Origin: Trypanosoma brucei
Lineage: Eukaryota
DNA length: 64,000 nucleotides
NCBI GenBank assembly: GCA_000002445.1
Contig: CP000068.1
Location: 832,001 to 896,000, forward strand
Direction of reading: 5' to 3'
Shown here in pieces: positions 39,766 through 44,626 of the stretch. Both the position numbers and the translations under genes were made by a program. The notes below the pieces were generated by a model. The model was given only the letters and a program-made list of their open reading frames with translations, did no database searches and was not told the DNA's origin. Every line of letters starts with the position of its first letter. The stretch's first letter is position 1.

Positions 39766-40689
39766 CAAAATCTACCATAGTCAAAAACGTTCCTCCCCTT
39801 CATCTTTTCAATTTTGTACTTTCTGTCCTGGCGAACAGACGGAAGAACCTGTAAGTGCGTCTGATATAAATTTTTCTTCCCTTCAATTACATGCTGTCAT
39901 GCGCTACATTCGAATGCGGAAGTCAGTTCCTGCACTCCCCTACAAACCCCCTCTCTCCTCCCCCGCATACCTAATTTTTTTCTTTTCCTCCCTTAAAATA
40001 AGAAACGGGATGCTAAGAGATACCGTGGAAGGTCCCCACTTCGAGAGGTACGATGACATCATCTGCCGTAAAGGCTCCTGAGGTTCAGCTCCAGGAGTAC
40101 TCTTCATGAATGTGATTTATCGAGCCTTTTTGCCTCGCAGGCGACATCCAATATCCCTCCGTGGAGTTATCCTTGTGATTTGTATTCTCCGCATCCCCGA
40201 GCTGTGCTTGTCCCGGTCTATCTTTATTTCTCATAGTCCGAGCGGAGAGTCCCCAAGCCAACGCGGATGGTTCGTGGCCTCCCCATTTTATGCTGCCCTG
40301 CCTCTTTGTTTTGTGTTCGGGAACATGGCTGACGGCTGCTCTCGTATTTATAACGCACCCGGGTTGGTGCTGGGACCCCTTATATTTGAATTTGGAGGGG
40401 TCGGCGTGTGAGACGTTTTTTTTATTTATTTGCTCCGTGGGGGTTTGTATCTTCCTCGGTATCTTCTTCGTGAGCCTCCTCCTGATTGCGCGGGTTTTGT
40501 ACACTTTGGGGATGCTCCCCCGTTTTTTGATCGACGGTTAGGAAAACATTGGGTACCGTCGATGAGGACTCGGTGTTCTGCTGAATCGTCGTGTTTTTGT
40601 GTATATTCCTTGATACTGCTGGGTCGGGACGGTCCTCTAATTCGTTGTTGTTCATACGCCGTTAGTTGTCTGCGTGGGCGGTTTTTGAA

Positions 40690-41215
40690 CTACGCTGTGA
40701 ATGCTTCGATATTGCGTTTCAGTTCATCTTCCGGTGTGAGTTTTCGGCGTAAGTTGAGGCGTCGACCCAGGTATTTTTTAGCGGGGATCGATGAACAAAG
40801 TTCCTCGTATGCGACTTGACCTTCCTGTACGAAACGTTCCCCGTTGTCTTTATTCCCGCTTACCATAAGCTCTTCTTCAACCGCGATCCAAGCCGAGTCG
40901 ATGTTTGTTTCGTCGTGTTTCCAGGACCCACCAATGGACCATAAAGTGACCAGGATAACTGTTATTTAGAATTATCCCTCCTCACCTGTGGGCACTCCCA
41001 TCAGTAGTTATCGTTCAATTCAACGGCTTAACTACTTTTAGTAAGGGAAGTGGATGTTGTGGTTCGCTGTGCAATATCGTCGTTCTGGGGCTGGAAAAAG
41101 CCCCCTTTCACACTGGAGCTAGGGGTTGTAGCATAATCAATCATCGGATTCTGAGTCCAATGTTCCTGATATCGTCCAAGGAGTTTGATGGTGGAAAAAC
41201 ACTTCATTTAACTAA
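40690..41215 (-). pseudogene. Possible frame-disrupted gene remnant: a 59-aa ORF (MKCFSTIKLLGRYQEHWTQNPMIDYATTPSSS...) followed in another frame by about 85 aa of protein-like sequence (...WKHDETNIDSAWIAVEEELMVSGNKDNGERFVQEGQVAYEELCSSIPAKKYLGRRLNLRRKLTPEDELKRNIEAFTA*).
   Basis: Manual translation of the minus strand. Composition is protein-like (not low-complexity), but no intact ORF of 100 aa or more exists and no family was recognised. Confidence 0.25.
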
Positions 41216-42265
41216 CTCCTAGTGCAGATCCCGCTGTGCGAAGACCATCTACCTGGGGTTTCCCAACGTTACCGGCCTGAAGCGCTTCCAGCGGCGCTAA
41301 ACCGTATTTTAATTTGGCGCCCGCAGGATCCCTGCATATTATGGCCTACAGCGGTGGCAACTCCTTACCGTCTGATGAATTCCCTCTCGGTTCCTCTGTC
41401 CCGACTGCCATTGAGCCCTCTCCTGTTCCCACTTCGCAGCGTAGCCGCCAATTCAATACGTCCAAGAACAGGGGTCCCATCACTGGCTGCGAGGGCCTAT
41501 AGCTTCCCGTGCTGTCAGCGCACTTTCCCTCAGGCTCGGTGTGCCAAGTGCTTTTCCTGTCACAACCATTGGTTTTAGAGGGTATATAGGCAATGACAAC
41601 CCCCAGCTATTGTCCCGCAGTTGACCTAACAGATGCTTCTTTGTGTTCCCTGTTTGTTTTAAACCTTCTATTCTATTCATGTCACCCTTTGCCAGCATCA
41701 ATGTTCATATGCCTCTGAACGATGACGTTATTCCGAGTCTTCCTATTCAAATTCTGTTTTGCGTTGCGCTTCTACGTTGCGCCCCCATATTTTCTGCAAA
41801 ATGCGCAGTTCACTTTTTTCTTCGCAAAGGGACCTTGAAAACGTTAATTTTTTTTTTAGCATGGAGGGGCCCCAAGCATTCCATCACGATTCACGCGGGA
41901 TCACGCAGCCATTCTGTTCCACACCCCCGATAACAATACCAGCAGCTGTTTGCAGAACTAAAGGAACAGCTTTCCATGTTCGGAAGAGTTGATATATACC
42001 TCCCCCCGTACTGGCGAGCACCGATGGCTGTGCCGCTACCTCTTTCTCCAGTAGCCGACTGCACACTTCAGCTCTTAAAGGCGCGTGGCCGCTGAGGTGC
42101 ATAGTTTTCTCTCCATAGAATTTTCCGAATCCTGGCACCAAAATGATGGAGCCACTGTCGCTTTGCCCAATCGACAGGAAATGAACGGTATCAAGGCGCT
42201 CTCCTCCGATAGGGTTTTACAACACCGCTGTAACACCAAGTTCACATAATAGACCCGATTTCGTC

Positions 42266-42337
42266 TCCGGTGTGGTATAGTGGCTAGAACAAGCGGCTCT
42301 CACCCGCTAGACCCGGGTTCGATCCCCGGCACCGGAA
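42266..42337 (+). tRNA. tRNA-Glu (anticodon CUC), 72 nt including the discriminator A.
   Basis: Cloverleaf by hand. Acceptor stem TCCGGTG/CACCGGA (7 bp). Anticodon stem AGCGG/CCGCT with loop CTCTCAC (U33-CUC-A37). T-arm CCGGG/CCCGG with loop TTCGATC. A box TGGTATAGTGG and B box GGTTCGATCC. The D-stem has one A-A mismatch. Confidence 0.9.
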
Positions 42338-42340
42338 GCC

Positions 42341-42346
42341 TTTTTT
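42341..42346 (+). terminator. RNA polymerase III terminator (T6) 3 nt downstream of the tRNA.
   Basis: TTTTTT run immediately after the tRNA 3' end. Confidence 0.8.
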
Positions 42347-42732
42347 GGAGACCAACGTGCAGCTCCGCAAAAGGCTTATGAAAAGACAAAAAGTGGAACC
42401 GGAAAGCCGAACAACGGAAGCTCTCGTTTAGTCAGAAAGGCAACACAGAGGAAGGGTCGTCCCCCACCACGCATAAAATGACGGTGCCCTTCACTTCTTC
42501 ACAGAGCGTGATACCCGTTTGAGGGCAATGAACGATATATGAAGGACAGTTCGAGTGGGCATGAGAGCGCCGTCGCAGTGGCGGCATCGTATTGTTCGGG
42601 TTTTGGTTGGTCAGGTCCGGTTCTCTACTCGCCATTTGGGGCTTCGACACGGTTAAGTAATTTGGCGTGCCTCGTCGAAGGGCGTTATATTAACACAAGG
42701 CCTCTTTTTGGCGACTGCGGTGGTTGTGCGAT

Positions 42733-43445
42733 ATGGCCAGTGCCTGGAGGGTTCCTGGCGCAACATCCGACCCCCGGGAAGGCAGAACGCCGCCGGTGAG
42801 TGGGGTTGGAATGTGGTAGTTGTTGCGCTTACGGGTGTTTTCCGGGCAACTTTTCGTTAAATAATCAGTTTTACACAGAGACAGTTGCGTGTTGTCTTCA
42901 TTTTGGCCATCTAGGTGGCTATCGCCTTACGTGTGGTGAAAACAACTCGGTGAGGTGCGCAAAAGCATGAAAGGTCGGAAAATGAATGGGAAAGTGCGGC
43001 CGCACTGGCGGGAGACTCCGTCGCTCCCTCATTGCTGGCGCCGACACTTTCCCCGAGACCCTCCAACTAATTAATGAGGATCCCCTTTGGAATCAACAAT
43101 ACCTCAGCAAGGTGCAAACGGCGCAGCGACGTGGCCGGTGAAAATGAAAGTTGAGCACAGTGACGTAATTTGGAGGTTTTAAAGCCATTTTAAGGGATCA
43201 TGGTGAACAGGGTTTAGGAAATAGGTCAAAGGAGATAAGGTACTCAGAGGTGAGAACGGCAGCGACCCAGTTTTGGCTACGGGGACATTAAACCTTGAAA
43301 ACTAGGATCCTAAAGGTAAAATACTCTCGCGTGCCGCCCCACTGGCGAGGATGCGAAGGTACTTCCACGTGTCCCGCACTGCGGGCCTTTGTGGAAATTG
43401 GCGGTGCAGAGCGCGGCCATTTCCCCCATCAAGCAAAAAAAAAAA
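42733..43445 (+). mobile_element. Degenerate non-LTR retroposon fragment (ingi/RIME/DIRE-like 5' signature followed by a non-coding body and an A11 tract). Boundaries approximate.
   Basis: The sequence GGCCAGTGCCTGGAGGGTTCCTGGCGCAACATCCGACCCCCGGGAAGGCAGAACGCCGCCGGTGAGTGGGGTTGGAATGTGG matches my recollection of the conserved approximately 79-nt 5' hallmark shared by trypanosome ingi/RIME/L1Tc elements. Downstream there are only short overlapping ORFs and poly(A) at 43431-43441. This comes from memory and is not a database match. Confidence 0.45.
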
Positions 43446-44626
43446 CCTACTCGACAGGAAAATTCGCGGTCACTCAGCTTTCCACTGGACAGTTGGCCAA
43501 TTCGGCCCGCCATCCGCGTTGCTGTCTCCGGGTTTAGTTGCATGCAAATTCTTCATCGGCGACCGTTTCAACCCAAGACGCGCACCTGGCTGGAAGCAAC
43601 GGCGCCCGATCCCTCACGCAGTGTGCAAATCAACTTTCCGCCTCTATGGCGGGGAACGACGACAGAAGTATTGTAAGACGAAAAAGGTTCGTTGCAACGC
43701 CTCCGGCTTTTGGAGGTCACCCGACATTGGGGAGATCTCACCGTGCGCCGCCCTTTTTTTAAAAAAAAAGTTGGTTACCCCCACATAAGGGATGGGAACA
43801 GAAGGGATCGCCCAAAGCCCCGGGTAGCTACAACCGTAATTCCGGTTGCGCAGTGACCTTGGCCCTCCCTCAGTTGGTCTGCAAACTGCTGATGACCGCC
43901 GTTACCCCCGACCCAGGTCGTGCCAAGCAAAAGGTAAATTTCCTTTGACTTGCCGTGTTTAACCGCGAGGTGCCCCAGTCATTTACAGGGTTTTGAGAAG
44001 CCTCATGGCCCTTATCGCACAGTCGAGGGTGTTACGGACATTATTATAAATTTCCTAACATCCGAAACGAAAGGGCCACCATCTCGCCATATGGAAGAAG
44101 AAGGGGTTATGTGGACGCTGGACAGTCCAAAGAGTGGTGTAGATGATATTCGCCCGAAAGAATGATTTCACGAAACAGGTTTACCAAGCGCCACTAGAGT
44201 TAAAGGATAAAGGAGCGCATATGCGTATGCACGCCGTTGGTAACCGCCAAATCAAACGTAAGTTTACGGCCGTTGCCTCTCCATTTGCACCAATTACACT
44301 TTGCATGAAGAACAACGTGCAAACCGGTCGACTGTCAAGTTATCAGCGGTCACCATCTCGGTAAATACTCTTTCCTTCTTCATAAAGCATGCGTAGTCAT
44401 CCTTTTTACAGCACAAAAAGGAGGAGAGAGGATAGTGCAGTCAAACCGAAGAAAAAGAATGAAAGTGTTTTTCCACCTCTAGGTACTGGCAGTTAACAGT
44501 ATTCAAAAAGCAATGAATAAAAAAGGCTCCGGGGAATGGAACACGAATACACACACCGGCTGCCGCGCTAAATCTAGCAAAACGGTATATACACATCGTG
44601 TGGCCACCTCACTCCCTCCCACCGCT

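What the first reader, a model, noticed from the sequence alone, without database searches (positions are those of the whole stretch)
39766..44626. Convergent strand-switch region carrying a tRNA-Glu gene, a retroposon relic and frame-broken ORF fragments
Coding polarity flips here: 17 plus-strand genes end at 39765 and the minus-strand unit's last gene ends at 44627. In trypanosomes these convergent junctions are RNA polymerase II termination sites. They are typically marked by base J and the histone variants H3.V and H4.V, and often host polymerase III genes. This one contains a textbook tRNA-Glu(CUC) with a T6 terminator, a sequence resembling the ingi/RIME 5' hallmark, and about 500 bp of protein-like but frame-broken sequence (40690-41215, minus strand). 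This co-location is known from T. brucei in general, but the particular combination at this locus is worth documenting.
Basis: partly seen in the sequence, partly recalled or inferred. Interest (0 to 1): 0.5.

Follow-up and report, generated by a model that had tools for sequence, protein, structure and literature searches.

The report
Annotated tRNA-bearing convergent strand-switch region
This is the already annotated spot on Trypanosoma brucei chromosome 5 where two gene arrays run head-on into each other around a single tRNA-Glu gene; the tRNA and the strand switch are real, but the claimed retroposon relic and broken gene are not supported, so the locus is ordinary.

Summary
The window is T. 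brucei brucei TREU927 chromosome 5, 832,001-896,000. The finding is the convergent strand-switch region between Tb927.5.2760 (TbGT10) and Tb927.5.2770 (SET-domain protein).

Confirmed:
- Coding polarity flips at 39765/44627.
- A textbook tRNA-Glu(CUC) lies at 42266-42337 with a T6 run. It is the published gene Tb927.5.2765.

The locus is already catalogued three times:
- as a single-tRNA locus;
- as siRNA-producing convergent unit CTU14 (243 AGO1-bound reads, DCL2-dependent);
- as a cSSR-flanking gene in a base J/H3.V termination study, where antisense signal over the SET gene is about 1,300-fold below sense.

Not confirmed:
- The ingi/RIME hallmark. The best Pr77-profile hit in the region scores 4.3 bits (E=1.5), no better than chance hits inside coding genes. 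There is no target-site duplication.
- The frame-broken gene. It has no homologue, no Pfam domain and no annotation, and all 11 strain differences are non-synonymous. One stretch does have gene-like codon usage.

New but minor:
- Strand composition switches exactly at the tRNA terminator.
- The region's core evolves about twice as fast as ordinary intergenic DNA.
- The tRNA is absent from the orthologous strand switch in five other trypanosomatids.

Verdict: already known, low interest.

The parts
38530..39765 (+). Last gene of the plus-strand unit: Tb927.5.2760 (TbGT10, GT67-family glycosyltransferase)
   Evidence: ORF. Pfam Galactosyl_T, E=4.5e-9. The gene ID is inferred from the numbering around Tb927.5.2765. 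TbGT10 papers cite Tb927.5.2760.
39766..40765 (+). Outer flank of the region, UTR-like for the plus unit. It contains pyrimidine tracts at about 39946-39993 and 40414-40492.
   Evidence: Read directly from the sequence. Pyrimidine fraction 0.56-0.60. Divergence from T. b. gambiense is 1.2%, like ordinary intergenic DNA. The UTR role is inferred, not shown.
40425..40661 (-). Stop-free stretch A (79 codons) with gene-like codon usage. It is the antisense of the 40414-40492 pyrimidine tract, and is probably a compositional artefact.
   Evidence: 0.198 bits/codon. Acidic, low-complexity translation. All 3 strain differences are non-synonymous. Not in any annotation.
40693..40965 (-). It has gene-like codon usage but no homologue.
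   Evidence: 0.154 bits/codon, with 1 of 268 spurious ORFs and 0.14% of shuffled stretches at or above it. No homologues. No Pfam match. All 4 strain differences are non-synonymous.
41031..41207 (-). It is not distinguishable from chance.
   Evidence: Weak frame-specific score, with 16 of 500 shuffles at or above it before correcting for being stop-free. It has a stop codon in both gambiense-type sequences.
40766..42265 (.). Left half of the fast-evolving core spacer, pyrimidine-rich on the + strand
   Evidence: Divergence from gambiense is 2.8-4.0%. Pyrimidine fraction of the whole left half (39766-42265) is 0.574. No repeat or paralogue found.
42095..42160 (-). It is at chance level.
   Evidence: nhmmer 4.3 bits, E=1.5 per window. 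Smith-Waterman alignment to L1Tc Pr77 gives about 63% identity over 60 nt. No target-site duplication. A 7-nt indel and many substitutions lie nearby between strains.
42266..42337 (+). tRNA-Glu(CUC) gene, Tb927.5.2765 (Tb05_tRNA_Glu_1)
   Evidence: ARAGORN. Rfam 58.1 bits. Published coordinates 874266-874337. Invariant in four T. brucei-group sequences.
42341..42346 (+). T6 run, the polymerase III terminator of the tRNA. It is also the change-point of strand composition.
   Evidence: Sequence. Listed as T-run 6 in the published table. Cumulative pyrimidine excess peaks at 42346.
42338..44026 (.). Right half of the fast-evolving core spacer, purine-rich on the + strand
   Evidence: Divergence 2.6-3.8%. 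Pyrimidine fraction of the whole right half (42338-44626) is 0.472. The stop-free stretch 43938-44162 (+) scores 0.161 bits/codon but is frame-shifted in gambiense.
44027..44626 (-). Outer flank of the region, UTR-like for the minus unit, with a minus-strand pyrimidine tract at about 44405-44460
   Evidence: Sequence. Divergence 1.5%. The UTR role is inferred.
44627..45850 (-). Last gene of the minus-strand unit: Tb927.5.2770, SET-domain protein (XP_844949.1)
   Evidence: ORF. Pfam SET, E=1.8e-10. Exact match to the TREU927 protein. Listed as a cSSR-proximal gene.

Best explanation
This is an ordinary, already annotated convergent strand-switch region of T. brucei chromosome 5 (871,766-876,626 in TREU927).

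Shown:
- Two polycistronic RNA polymerase II units end here. The plus unit ends with TbGT10 and the minus unit with the SET-domain gene.
- A single, active-looking tRNA-Glu(CUC) gene sits about 100 nt from the midpoint of the 4.86-kb spacer.
- Read-through into the opposite unit is about a thousand-fold below sense level.
- The little overlap that occurs yields a small amount of DCL2-dependent siRNA.

Inferred:
- The outer 0.6-1 kb on each side behaves like normal 3' UTR or processing sequence of the flanking genes.
- The roughly 3.2-kb core is unconstrained spacer. Its strand composition mirrors the direction of the unit entering it and flips exactly at the tRNA terminator. I read this as both units historically being transcribed up to the tRNA and stopping there.
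- Termination is most likely produced jointly by the termination chromatin described for cSSRs in general (base J, H3.V, H4.V) and by the polymerase III complex on the tRNA acting as a boundary.

No retroposon and no recognisable gene relic is needed to explain the sequence.
For: Identity of the locus:
- tRNA coordinates and downstream sequence match Tb927.5.2765 with an offset of exactly 832,000.
- The SET protein is identical to XP_844949.1 of TREU927.
- The region is 99.7% identical to T. equiperdum and 98% to T. b. gambiense chromosome 5.

Strand switch and tRNA.

Published functional data for this locus:
- CTU14, 870,000-878,800: 131 top-strand and 112 bottom-strand AGO1-bound small RNAs in wild type, 203 in dcl1-/-, 22 in dcl2-/-.
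- Tb927.5.2770 antisense log2 RPKM: -4.57 in wild type, -3.01 without J, -4.25 without H3.V, -3.12 without both. Sense is 5.76.

General knowledge:
- 34.6% of T. brucei tRNA loci lie in convergent strand-switch regions, and polymerase II termination occurs within the tRNA region on L. major chromosome 3.
- J and H3.V are found at cSSRs.
- Termination is often associated with a tRNA gene.

Sequence anatomy:
- The pyrimidine-skew change-point is at 42346, with 0 of 2000 block permutations reaching the observed excursion.
- The tRNA is invariant, while the core diverges 3.14% against 1.44% for intra-unit intergenic DNA (Fisher p=1.7e-7).
- The spacer is unique sequence with no Pfam domain in any frame.
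Against: - No chromatin, nascent-RNA or polymerase III occupancy data could be examined for this site. The relative contributions of the tRNA complex and of J/H3.V/H4.V are therefore inferred.
- The poly(A)+ data measure stable RNA, not transcription.
- Three stop-free stretches have more gene-like codon usage than composition-matched shuffles predict (0 of 400 shuffles give two or more). 'Pure spacer' does not fully explain this.
- The skew change-point could partly reflect the T6 run itself.
Confidence: 0.9

Rival explanations
1. The spacer contains a highly degenerate ingi-clade retroposon (SIDER- or DIRE-like) on the minus strand. Its 5' Pr77 hallmark would lie near 42165-42095 and its A10 tail at 41857-41848, inserted next to the tRNA gene.
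For: - The best local alignment of L1Tc Pr77 in the whole window, on both strands, falls here. It runs 60 nt with one gap at about 63% identity, and no tile elsewhere in the window reaches its score.
- The GGTGCCAGG core and a GAGAG-A-CTA-GC-CC tail are collinear with the hallmark.
- An A10 run lies about 240-310 nt downstream on the same strand.
- Retroposons accumulate in strand-switch regions (abstracts), and the orthologous T. vivax region carries a Tvingi fragment.
Against: - The profile score is only 4.3 bits, E=1.5 per 64 kb, about 0.1 for the region alone. Two equal hits lie inside coding genes.
- The conserved CGTG motif reads TTTG.
- The core motif has no match with up to 3 mismatches.
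- There is no target-site duplication (1995 of 2000 shuffles do as well).
- There is no similarity to TbSIDER1 or TbSIDER2 bodies.
- No reverse transcriptase or endonuclease remnant appears in any frame.
Confidence: 0.07
2. The minus-strand stretches at 40425-41207 are the decayed remains of a lineage-specific gene, or a still-functional micro-ORF. It once lay downstream of the SET gene in the minus unit and was orphaned when the tRNA-centred termination site arose.
For: - Stretches 40693-40965 and 40425-40661 have codon usage as good as real genes: 0.154 and 0.198 bits/codon against a gene mean of 0.150. They rank above nearly all 268 spurious ORFs of the window, and above 99.9% of shuffled stretches.
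- They are adjacent, on the same strand, in different frames.
- L. major and T. melophagium carry one more gene after SET before the switch.
- The tRNA is absent at the orthologous site in five other species.
Against: - No homologue in 5.8 billion or 1.84 billion protein libraries, no Pfam match, and no public annotation.
- The extra gene of L. major and T. melophagium leaves no trace here.
- All 11 differences among four strains are non-synonymous, and one is a stop. This fits neutrality, not a maintained protein.
- The first stretch is simply the antisense of a triplet-periodic pyrimidine tract.
- A comparably scoring plus-strand stretch (43938-44162) is frame-shifted in gambiense, which shows that such scores do arise in non-coding DNA here.
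- The longest ATG-initiated ORF in stretch B is 58 aa.
Confidence: 0.12
3. The tRNA gene is a passive passenger. Termination of both units is set entirely by chromatin (base J, H3.V, H4.V and the PJW/PP1 complex), and the tRNA merely landed in a transcriptionally quiet gap.
For: - The strand switch after the SET gene is conserved in T. vivax, T. cruzi, T. rangeli, T. melophagium and L. major without any tRNA. Termination at this position therefore does not need one.
- Most T. brucei cSSRs have no tRNA.
- J and H3.V are established termination marks.
Against: - At this locus, loss of J plus H3.V raises antisense RNA over the SET gene only about 2.7-fold. At Tb927.5.3100 or Tb927.5.4640 it rises by more than 6 log2 units. 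Something else still stops or removes read-through.
- The compositional boundary coincides with the tRNA terminator to within a few bases.
- Termination within a tRNA region has been shown in L. major.
Confidence: 0.3

Closest known systems
T. brucei convergent strand-switch regions / transcription termination sites (Siegel 2009, from my own knowledge; Schulz 2016 PMC4721952; Reynolds 2016 PMC4721609)
   Same: - Two units converge, with no coding gene between them.
- The flanking gene Tb927.5.2770 is itself in the published list of cSSR-proximal genes, with very low antisense signal.
   Different: Nothing structural. Read-through after loss of J and H3.V is weaker here than at many other cSSRs.
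tRNA-containing convergent regions, e.g. L. major chromosome 3 tRNA-Lys (Martinez-Calvillo 2004, as cited in PMC2695483)
   Same: - A single tRNA gene lies between two convergent units.
- A short T-run terminator follows it.
- The proposed role is a polymerase II termination landmark.
   Different: - Termination inside the tRNA region has been mapped experimentally in L. major, not here.
- The tRNA here is lineage-specific. It is absent from the orthologous switch in T. vivax, T. cruzi, T. rangeli, T. melophagium and L. major.
siRNA-producing convergent transcription units (Tschudi 2012, PMC3447711)
   Same: This locus is CTU14. Small RNAs come from both strands and depend on DCL2.
   Different: It is one of the weaker sources: 35.6 normalised reads against up to 4,888 at CTU11.
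ingi-clade retroposons and their Pr77 hallmark (ingi/RIME, DIRE, TbSIDER1, TbSIDER2)
   Same: There is only a short, low-scoring resemblance at 42095-42160 (-), with an A10 run downstream.
   Different: - The profile match is not significant.
- The CGTG motif is lost.
- There is no target-site duplication, no body similarity and no coding remnant.

Membership tests
Convergent strand-switch region (polymerase II termination zone) of trypanosomatids | Coding polarity changes from + to - with the 3' ends of the two units facing each other | tested here: met
   ORF map. Flanking genes identified by Pfam and exact protein match.
Convergent strand-switch region (polymerase II termination zone) of trypanosomatids | No protein-coding gene between the two terminal genes | tested here: met
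   Six-frame Pfam is empty. ORF statistics equal chance. No annotated product. Two of three gambiense 'hypothetical' ORFs are broken in this strain.
Convergent strand-switch region (polymerase II termination zone) of trypanosomatids | Transcripts of each unit do not continue into the other unit | tested here: met
   Taken from published data, not from my own mapping. Antisense over Tb927.5.2770 is 2^-4.57 RPKM against 2^5.76 sense. siRNA output is low.
Convergent strand-switch region (polymerase II termination zone) of trypanosomatids | Enrichment of base J, H3.V and H4.V | not testable with these tools
   Stated for cSSRs in general. No site-specific track was available.
tRNA gene (polymerase III, type 2 promoter) | Cloverleaf with anticodon, scored by covariance model | tested here: met
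   ARAGORN calls Glu-CUC. Rfam RF00005 scores 58.1 bits against a gathering threshold of 29.
tRNA gene (polymerase III, type 2 promoter) | Internal A and B boxes and a downstream T-run of at least 4 | tested here: met
   TGGTATAGTGG and GGTTCGATCCC are read in the sequence (alignment). T6 lies 3 nt after the gene.
tRNA gene (polymerase III, type 2 promoter) | Sequence conserved under constraint | tested here: met
   There are no differences in 72 nt among four strains, while the flanks vary by 3-6%.
ingi-clade retroposon (ingi/RIME/DIRE/SIDER) | 76-79-nt Pr77 hallmark at the 5' end | tested here: not met
   Best profile hit is 4.3 bits, E=1.5, equal to chance hits in coding DNA. The core motif is absent with up to 3 mismatches.
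ingi-clade retroposon (ingi/RIME/DIRE/SIDER) | Poly(A) tail and a 12-bp target-site duplication | tested here: not met
   An A10 run is present, but the best 12-mer match is 6 of 12, and 1995 of 2000 shuffles do as well.
ingi-clade retroposon (ingi/RIME/DIRE/SIDER) | Body similarity to a known family, or a reverse transcriptase/endonuclease remnant | tested here: not met
   No blastn or nhmmer hit to TbSIDER1, TbSIDER2 or LmSIDER2. No Pfam RVT or Exo_endo_phos match in six frames. The full ingi body was not available for comparison.
Pseudogene (decayed copy of a protein-coding gene) | Detectable homology to a functional gene or protein family | tested here: not met
   No homologues. No Pfam match. 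No paralogue in the window. No trace of the extra Leishmania/T. melophagium gene.
Pseudogene (decayed copy of a protein-coding gene) | Residual coding statistics (codon usage) across frame-shifted segments | tested here: inconclusive
   Two adjacent minus-strand stretches score like genes. One of them is the antisense of a pyrimidine tract, and a similar plus-strand stretch is demonstrably non-coding.

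The most novel reading that the evidence does not exclude
The tRNA-Glu gene arrived at this ancient strand switch only in the T. brucei lineage and became the exact stop point of both units. The sequence between the old gene ends and the tRNA is now a fast-evolving, strand-asymmetric termination zone. Its roughly two-fold excess divergence would reflect mutagenic termination (R-loops, polymerase collisions or J-modified DNA), not merely relaxed constraint. 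It may also include the remains of an orphaned lineage-specific gene at 40.4-41.2 kb.
Probability: 0.1. Interest if true: 0.4.

Novelty: already known. Interest (0 to 1): 0.1.

Why it matters
It matters little as a discovery. The strand switch, the tRNA gene, the siRNA output and the flanking genes are all in the reference annotation and in published tables.

The useful outcome is corrective. The locus should not be recorded as carrying a retroposon relic or a pseudogene.

Three by-products could be tested genome-wide in T. brucei:
- the strand-composition switch exactly at the tRNA terminator;
- the doubled divergence of the spacer core;
- the weak dependence of this site on J and H3.V.

Each bears on whether tRNA genes act as polymerase II boundaries. 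Each is so far a single-locus observation.

Tried and rejected
(1) My own recollection of the Pr77 sequence made 43330-43395 look like the hallmark. The published sequence showed that recollection was wrong, and the segment has no match.

(2) Smith-Waterman, blastn (word size 7), single-sequence nhmmer and two Pr77 profiles were run against the window. They gave only chance-level hits.

(3) A search for a T. brucei ingi reference through the T. vivax ingi-like ORF returned only T. vivax and T. congolense proteins. The ingi and RIME consensus sequences were taken from a paper supplement instead.

(4) Homology searches for the 'broken ORF' found nothing real. The two HMMER hits at about 1e-10 are tandem-repeat proteins whose short matches are summed.

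(5) I looked for a relic of the extra gene that follows SET in L. major and T. melophagium, by tblastn and by profile against six-frame translations. Nothing was found.

(6) I considered a companion small-RNA gene divergent from the tRNA, as for trypanosome snRNA and 7SL genes. I rejected it for three reasons. Rfam finds nothing. A T4 run would terminate transcription within about 25 nt. The segment is the most variable between strains.

(7) Repeats within the region, against the rest of the window, and against orthologous loci: none.

(8) My first codon-usage tests, against intergenic background and against unconditioned shuffles, were biased by strand composition and by stop codons. I replaced them with nulls conditioned on being stop-free.

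(9) The T. congolense orthologous locus could not be fetched.

Full report
**Where the window comes from**

The DNA polymerase beta protein encoded at 47457-48680 (-) is found, residue for residue, on T. b. gambiense DAL972 chromosome 5, on T. equiperdum OVI and on a third T. brucei-group assembly. The 9 kb around the finding is 99.7% identical to T. equiperdum and 98% to T. b. gambiense.

The SET-domain protein at 44630-45850 (-) is identical to XP_844949.1 of T. b. brucei TREU927.

The published table of trypanosomatid tRNA genes lists Tb05_tRNA_Glu_1 (Tb927.5.2765), anticodon CTC, at chromosome 5 874266..874337. Its downstream sequence is GCCTTTTTTGGAGACCAACGT, with a T-run of 6. The window tRNA is at 42266..42337 with the same downstream sequence. 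The window is therefore TREU927 chromosome 5, 832,001-896,000, and the finding covers 871,766-876,626.

**Checking the observation**

The ORF map shows only plus-strand genes up to 39765 and only minus-strand genes from 44627. The genes flanking and adjoining the switch are:
- a Galactosyl_T-family protein at 38530-39765 (Tb927.5.2760, TbGT10);
- a SET-domain protein at 44627-45850;
- DNA polymerase beta at 47457-48680 (-), the next gene upstream of SET in the minus unit;
- an 813-aa polymerase beta-like gene at 50351-52792 (-), which I take to be Pol beta-PAK.

ARAGORN and Rfam both call a single tRNA-Glu(CUC) at 42266-42337 (+), at 58.1 bits. Rfam finds no other RNA family, even at permissive thresholds.

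So the strand switch, the tRNA and the T6 run are real. Two further claims, the retroposon hallmark and the frame-broken gene, needed separate tests.

**The retroposon hallmark**

The true hallmark sequences were taken from the literature. L1Tc Pr77 is CCCTGGCTCAGCCGGCCACCTCAACGTGGTGCCAGGGTC.... An alignment of 25 consensus sequences, including T. brucei ingi, RIME, DIRE, SIDER1 and SIDER2, was also available.

Results:
- The conserved core has no match with up to three mismatches in the 64-kb window.
- Full-length TbSIDER1 and TbSIDER2 elements give only noise.
- A profile of the 25 hallmarks gives its best hit in the region at 42160-42129 on the minus strand. It scores 4.3 bits, E=1.5. Two equally good hits sit inside coding genes at 30.8 and 17.9 kb.
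- A permissive alignment extends this to about 63% identity over 60 nt. That is the best score in the window, but only about 0.3 such hits are expected by chance.
- The invariant CGTG is not kept. There is no 12-bp target-site duplication next to the A10 run at 41848-41857.
- No reverse transcriptase or endonuclease remnant appears in any of the six frames.
- The segment is the most variable between strains, including a 7-nt indel.

I conclude that the resemblance is not distinguishable from chance.

**The frame-broken ORF fragments**

The number of stop-free stretches of at least 70 codons is 28, against 23.4 +/- 3.5 in shuffles. The longest is 160 codons, against a shuffle mean of 169. ORFs as such are therefore not evidence of a gene.

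Codon usage gives a different picture. I scored in-frame against out-of-frame usage, with nulls conditioned on being stop-free. The stretch 40693-40965 (-) scores 0.154 bits per codon and its neighbour 40425-40661 (-) scores 0.198. The 21 real genes of the window average 0.150. Only 0.14% of composition-matched shuffled stretches reach 0.154, and no shuffle out of 400 produces two such stretches.

Against a coding origin:
- No homologue was found by word-indexed search.
- The exhaustive HMMER search of 1.84 billion representatives returned two unrelated tandem-repeat proteins, whose short matches are multiplied by their repeats.
- There is no Pfam match, and none of these ORFs is in any public protein set.
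- All 11 differences among four T. brucei-group sequences in the three minus-strand pieces are non-synonymous.
- The best-scoring piece is the antisense of a triplet-periodic pyrimidine tract.
- A plus-strand stretch with an equally good score (43938-44162) is frame-shifted in gambiense.

The 'protein-like' impression therefore has a statistical basis for about 270 nt. There is no evidence of a gene or of a recognisable pseudogene.

**Anatomy of the spacer**

The spacer is unique sequence. It has no repeats within itself, against the rest of the window, or against orthologous loci.

Divergence from T. b. gambiense:

| Segment | Divergence |
|---|---|
| Flanking coding sequence | 0.25-1.2% |
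| Five intergenic regions inside the units | 1.44% on average |
| Outer 1,000 nt (left) and 600 nt (right) of the spacer | 1.2-1.5% |
| Core of the spacer, 40766-44026 | 3.14% |
| tRNA, 72 nt | no change |

The core against intra-unit intergenic DNA gives Fisher p=1.7e-7.

The plus strand is pyrimidine-rich left of the tRNA (0.574) and purine-rich right of it (0.472). The cumulative excess peaks at 42346, the last T of the tRNA terminator, and 0 of 2000 block permutations reach the observed excursion.

I read this as follows, by inference:
- Each outer flank is ordinary UTR or processing sequence.
- The core is unconstrained.
- Each half carries the compositional signature of the unit that enters it, up to the tRNA.

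**Comparative context**

The order Pol beta-PAK, Pol beta, SET, followed by a strand switch, is conserved in five other species:
- T. vivax, T. cruzi (two strains) and T. rangeli, where the switch follows SET directly;
- T. melophagium and L. major, where one extra gene comes first.

None of them has a tRNA within the sequence available downstream of SET. None carries the T. brucei plus-unit genes opposite.

The switch is therefore ancient. It is also a synteny break, and the tRNA is specific to the T. brucei lineage as far as sampled; T. congolense could not be fetched. In T. vivax the orthologous spacer holds a Tvingi fragment.

**How it most likely works**

Published data for this very locus show three things:
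- Antisense poly(A)+ RNA over Tb927.5.2770 is at log2 RPKM -4.57, against 5.76 for sense.
- It rises modestly without base J (-3.01) or without J and H3.V (-3.12).
- There are few small RNAs (243 reads). They come from both strands and depend on DCL2.

General knowledge places J and H3.V at convergent regions and links termination to tRNA genes.

I therefore commit to joint termination by termination chromatin and by the polymerase III complex on the tRNA. The tRNA marks the exact boundary. The relative weights are inferred, not shown. The weak J/H3.V dependence here, compared with Tb927.5.3100 or Tb927.5.4640, is the main hint that the tRNA contributes.

**Comparison with what is known, and verdict**

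Every confirmed element is already annotated or tabulated: Tb927.5.2765, CTU14, and the cSSR-proximal gene lists. The closest known systems are the generic T. brucei convergent termination regions and the tRNA-bearing convergent region of L. major chromosome 3. Nothing here departs from them.

The two claims that would have made the locus unusual fail or remain weak. The finding is already known and of low interest. The compositional change-point at the tRNA and the fast-evolving core are small observations that would need genome-wide testing.

Noticed in passing
window 40766-44026, against 37458-38529, 45851-47456, 48681-50350, 52793-53519 and 56802-57285: The core of the strand-switch region differs from T. 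b. gambiense at 3.14%, against 1.44% for intergenic regions inside the units (Fisher p=1.7e-7). The embedded tRNA is invariant. This could be relaxed constraint or a termination-linked mutation excess.
   Followed up: partly
window 42346: The cumulative pyrimidine excess of the + strand peaks at the last T of the tRNA's T6 terminator. Pyrimidine fraction is 0.574 to the left and 0.472 to the right, and 0 of 2000 block permutations reach the observed excursion.
   Followed up: yes
L007 13275-14396 (-), T. vivax: The orthologous convergent region of T. vivax carries a Tvingi endonuclease/reverse-transcriptase fragment. It matches many T. vivax retroposon proteins at 70-90% identity. So a retroposon is present at this junction in T. 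vivax even though none is detectable in T. brucei.
   Followed up: partly
L010 13286-14485 (+), L. major; L011 11500-13074 (+), T. melophagium: These two species have one more conserved gene after the SET gene before the strand switch (46% identity to each other over 316 aa). It is absent from that position in T. brucei, T. cruzi and T. vivax, and leaves no trace in the T. brucei spacer.
   Followed up: partly
window 44627-45850 (Tb927.5.2770), published S2 Data of PMC4721952: Antisense RNA over this gene rises only about 3-fold when base J, or J plus H3.V, is removed. At other cSSR-flanking genes in the same table, such as Tb927.5.3100 and Tb927.5.4640, it rises by more than 6 log2 units. Termination here therefore seems comparatively independent of J and H3.V.
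   Followed up: no
L001 14732-15034 and 16695-17009 (window 43646-43945 and 41679-41989, +): Two of the three roughly 100-aa 'hypothetical protein' genes called inside this region in the T. b. gambiense annotation are interrupted in TREU927, one by a stop and one by a frameshift. The third (window 40106-40408) has null-level codon usage. These gene calls look spurious.
   Followed up: yes
window 6987-11913: There is a 4.9-kb AT-rich, low-complexity gap inside the plus-strand unit without a credible ORF.
   Followed up: no
window 43748-43770, 49418-49440, 57877-57894: A T7-8 A9 palindromic motif (CCC..TTTTTTTAAAAAAAAAG) occurs three times in the window, always in non-coding DNA.
   Followed up: no
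window 52100-52618: Three near-perfect 174-nt tandem repeats (98% matches) lie inside the 813-aa polymerase beta-like gene at 50351-52792 (-), which I take to be Pol beta-PAK.
   Followed up: no
not in the window: TbSIDER2 sequences in the supplement of PMC4035085: The first roughly 60 nt of TbSIDER2 (the first of its two 'Pr77' copies) resembles tRNA A and B boxes: TGGTTTAGTGG ... ATCGATCCCCG. It aligns with the tRNA-Glu of this window over about 55 nt. ARAGORN does not call a tRNA there.
   Followed up: partly
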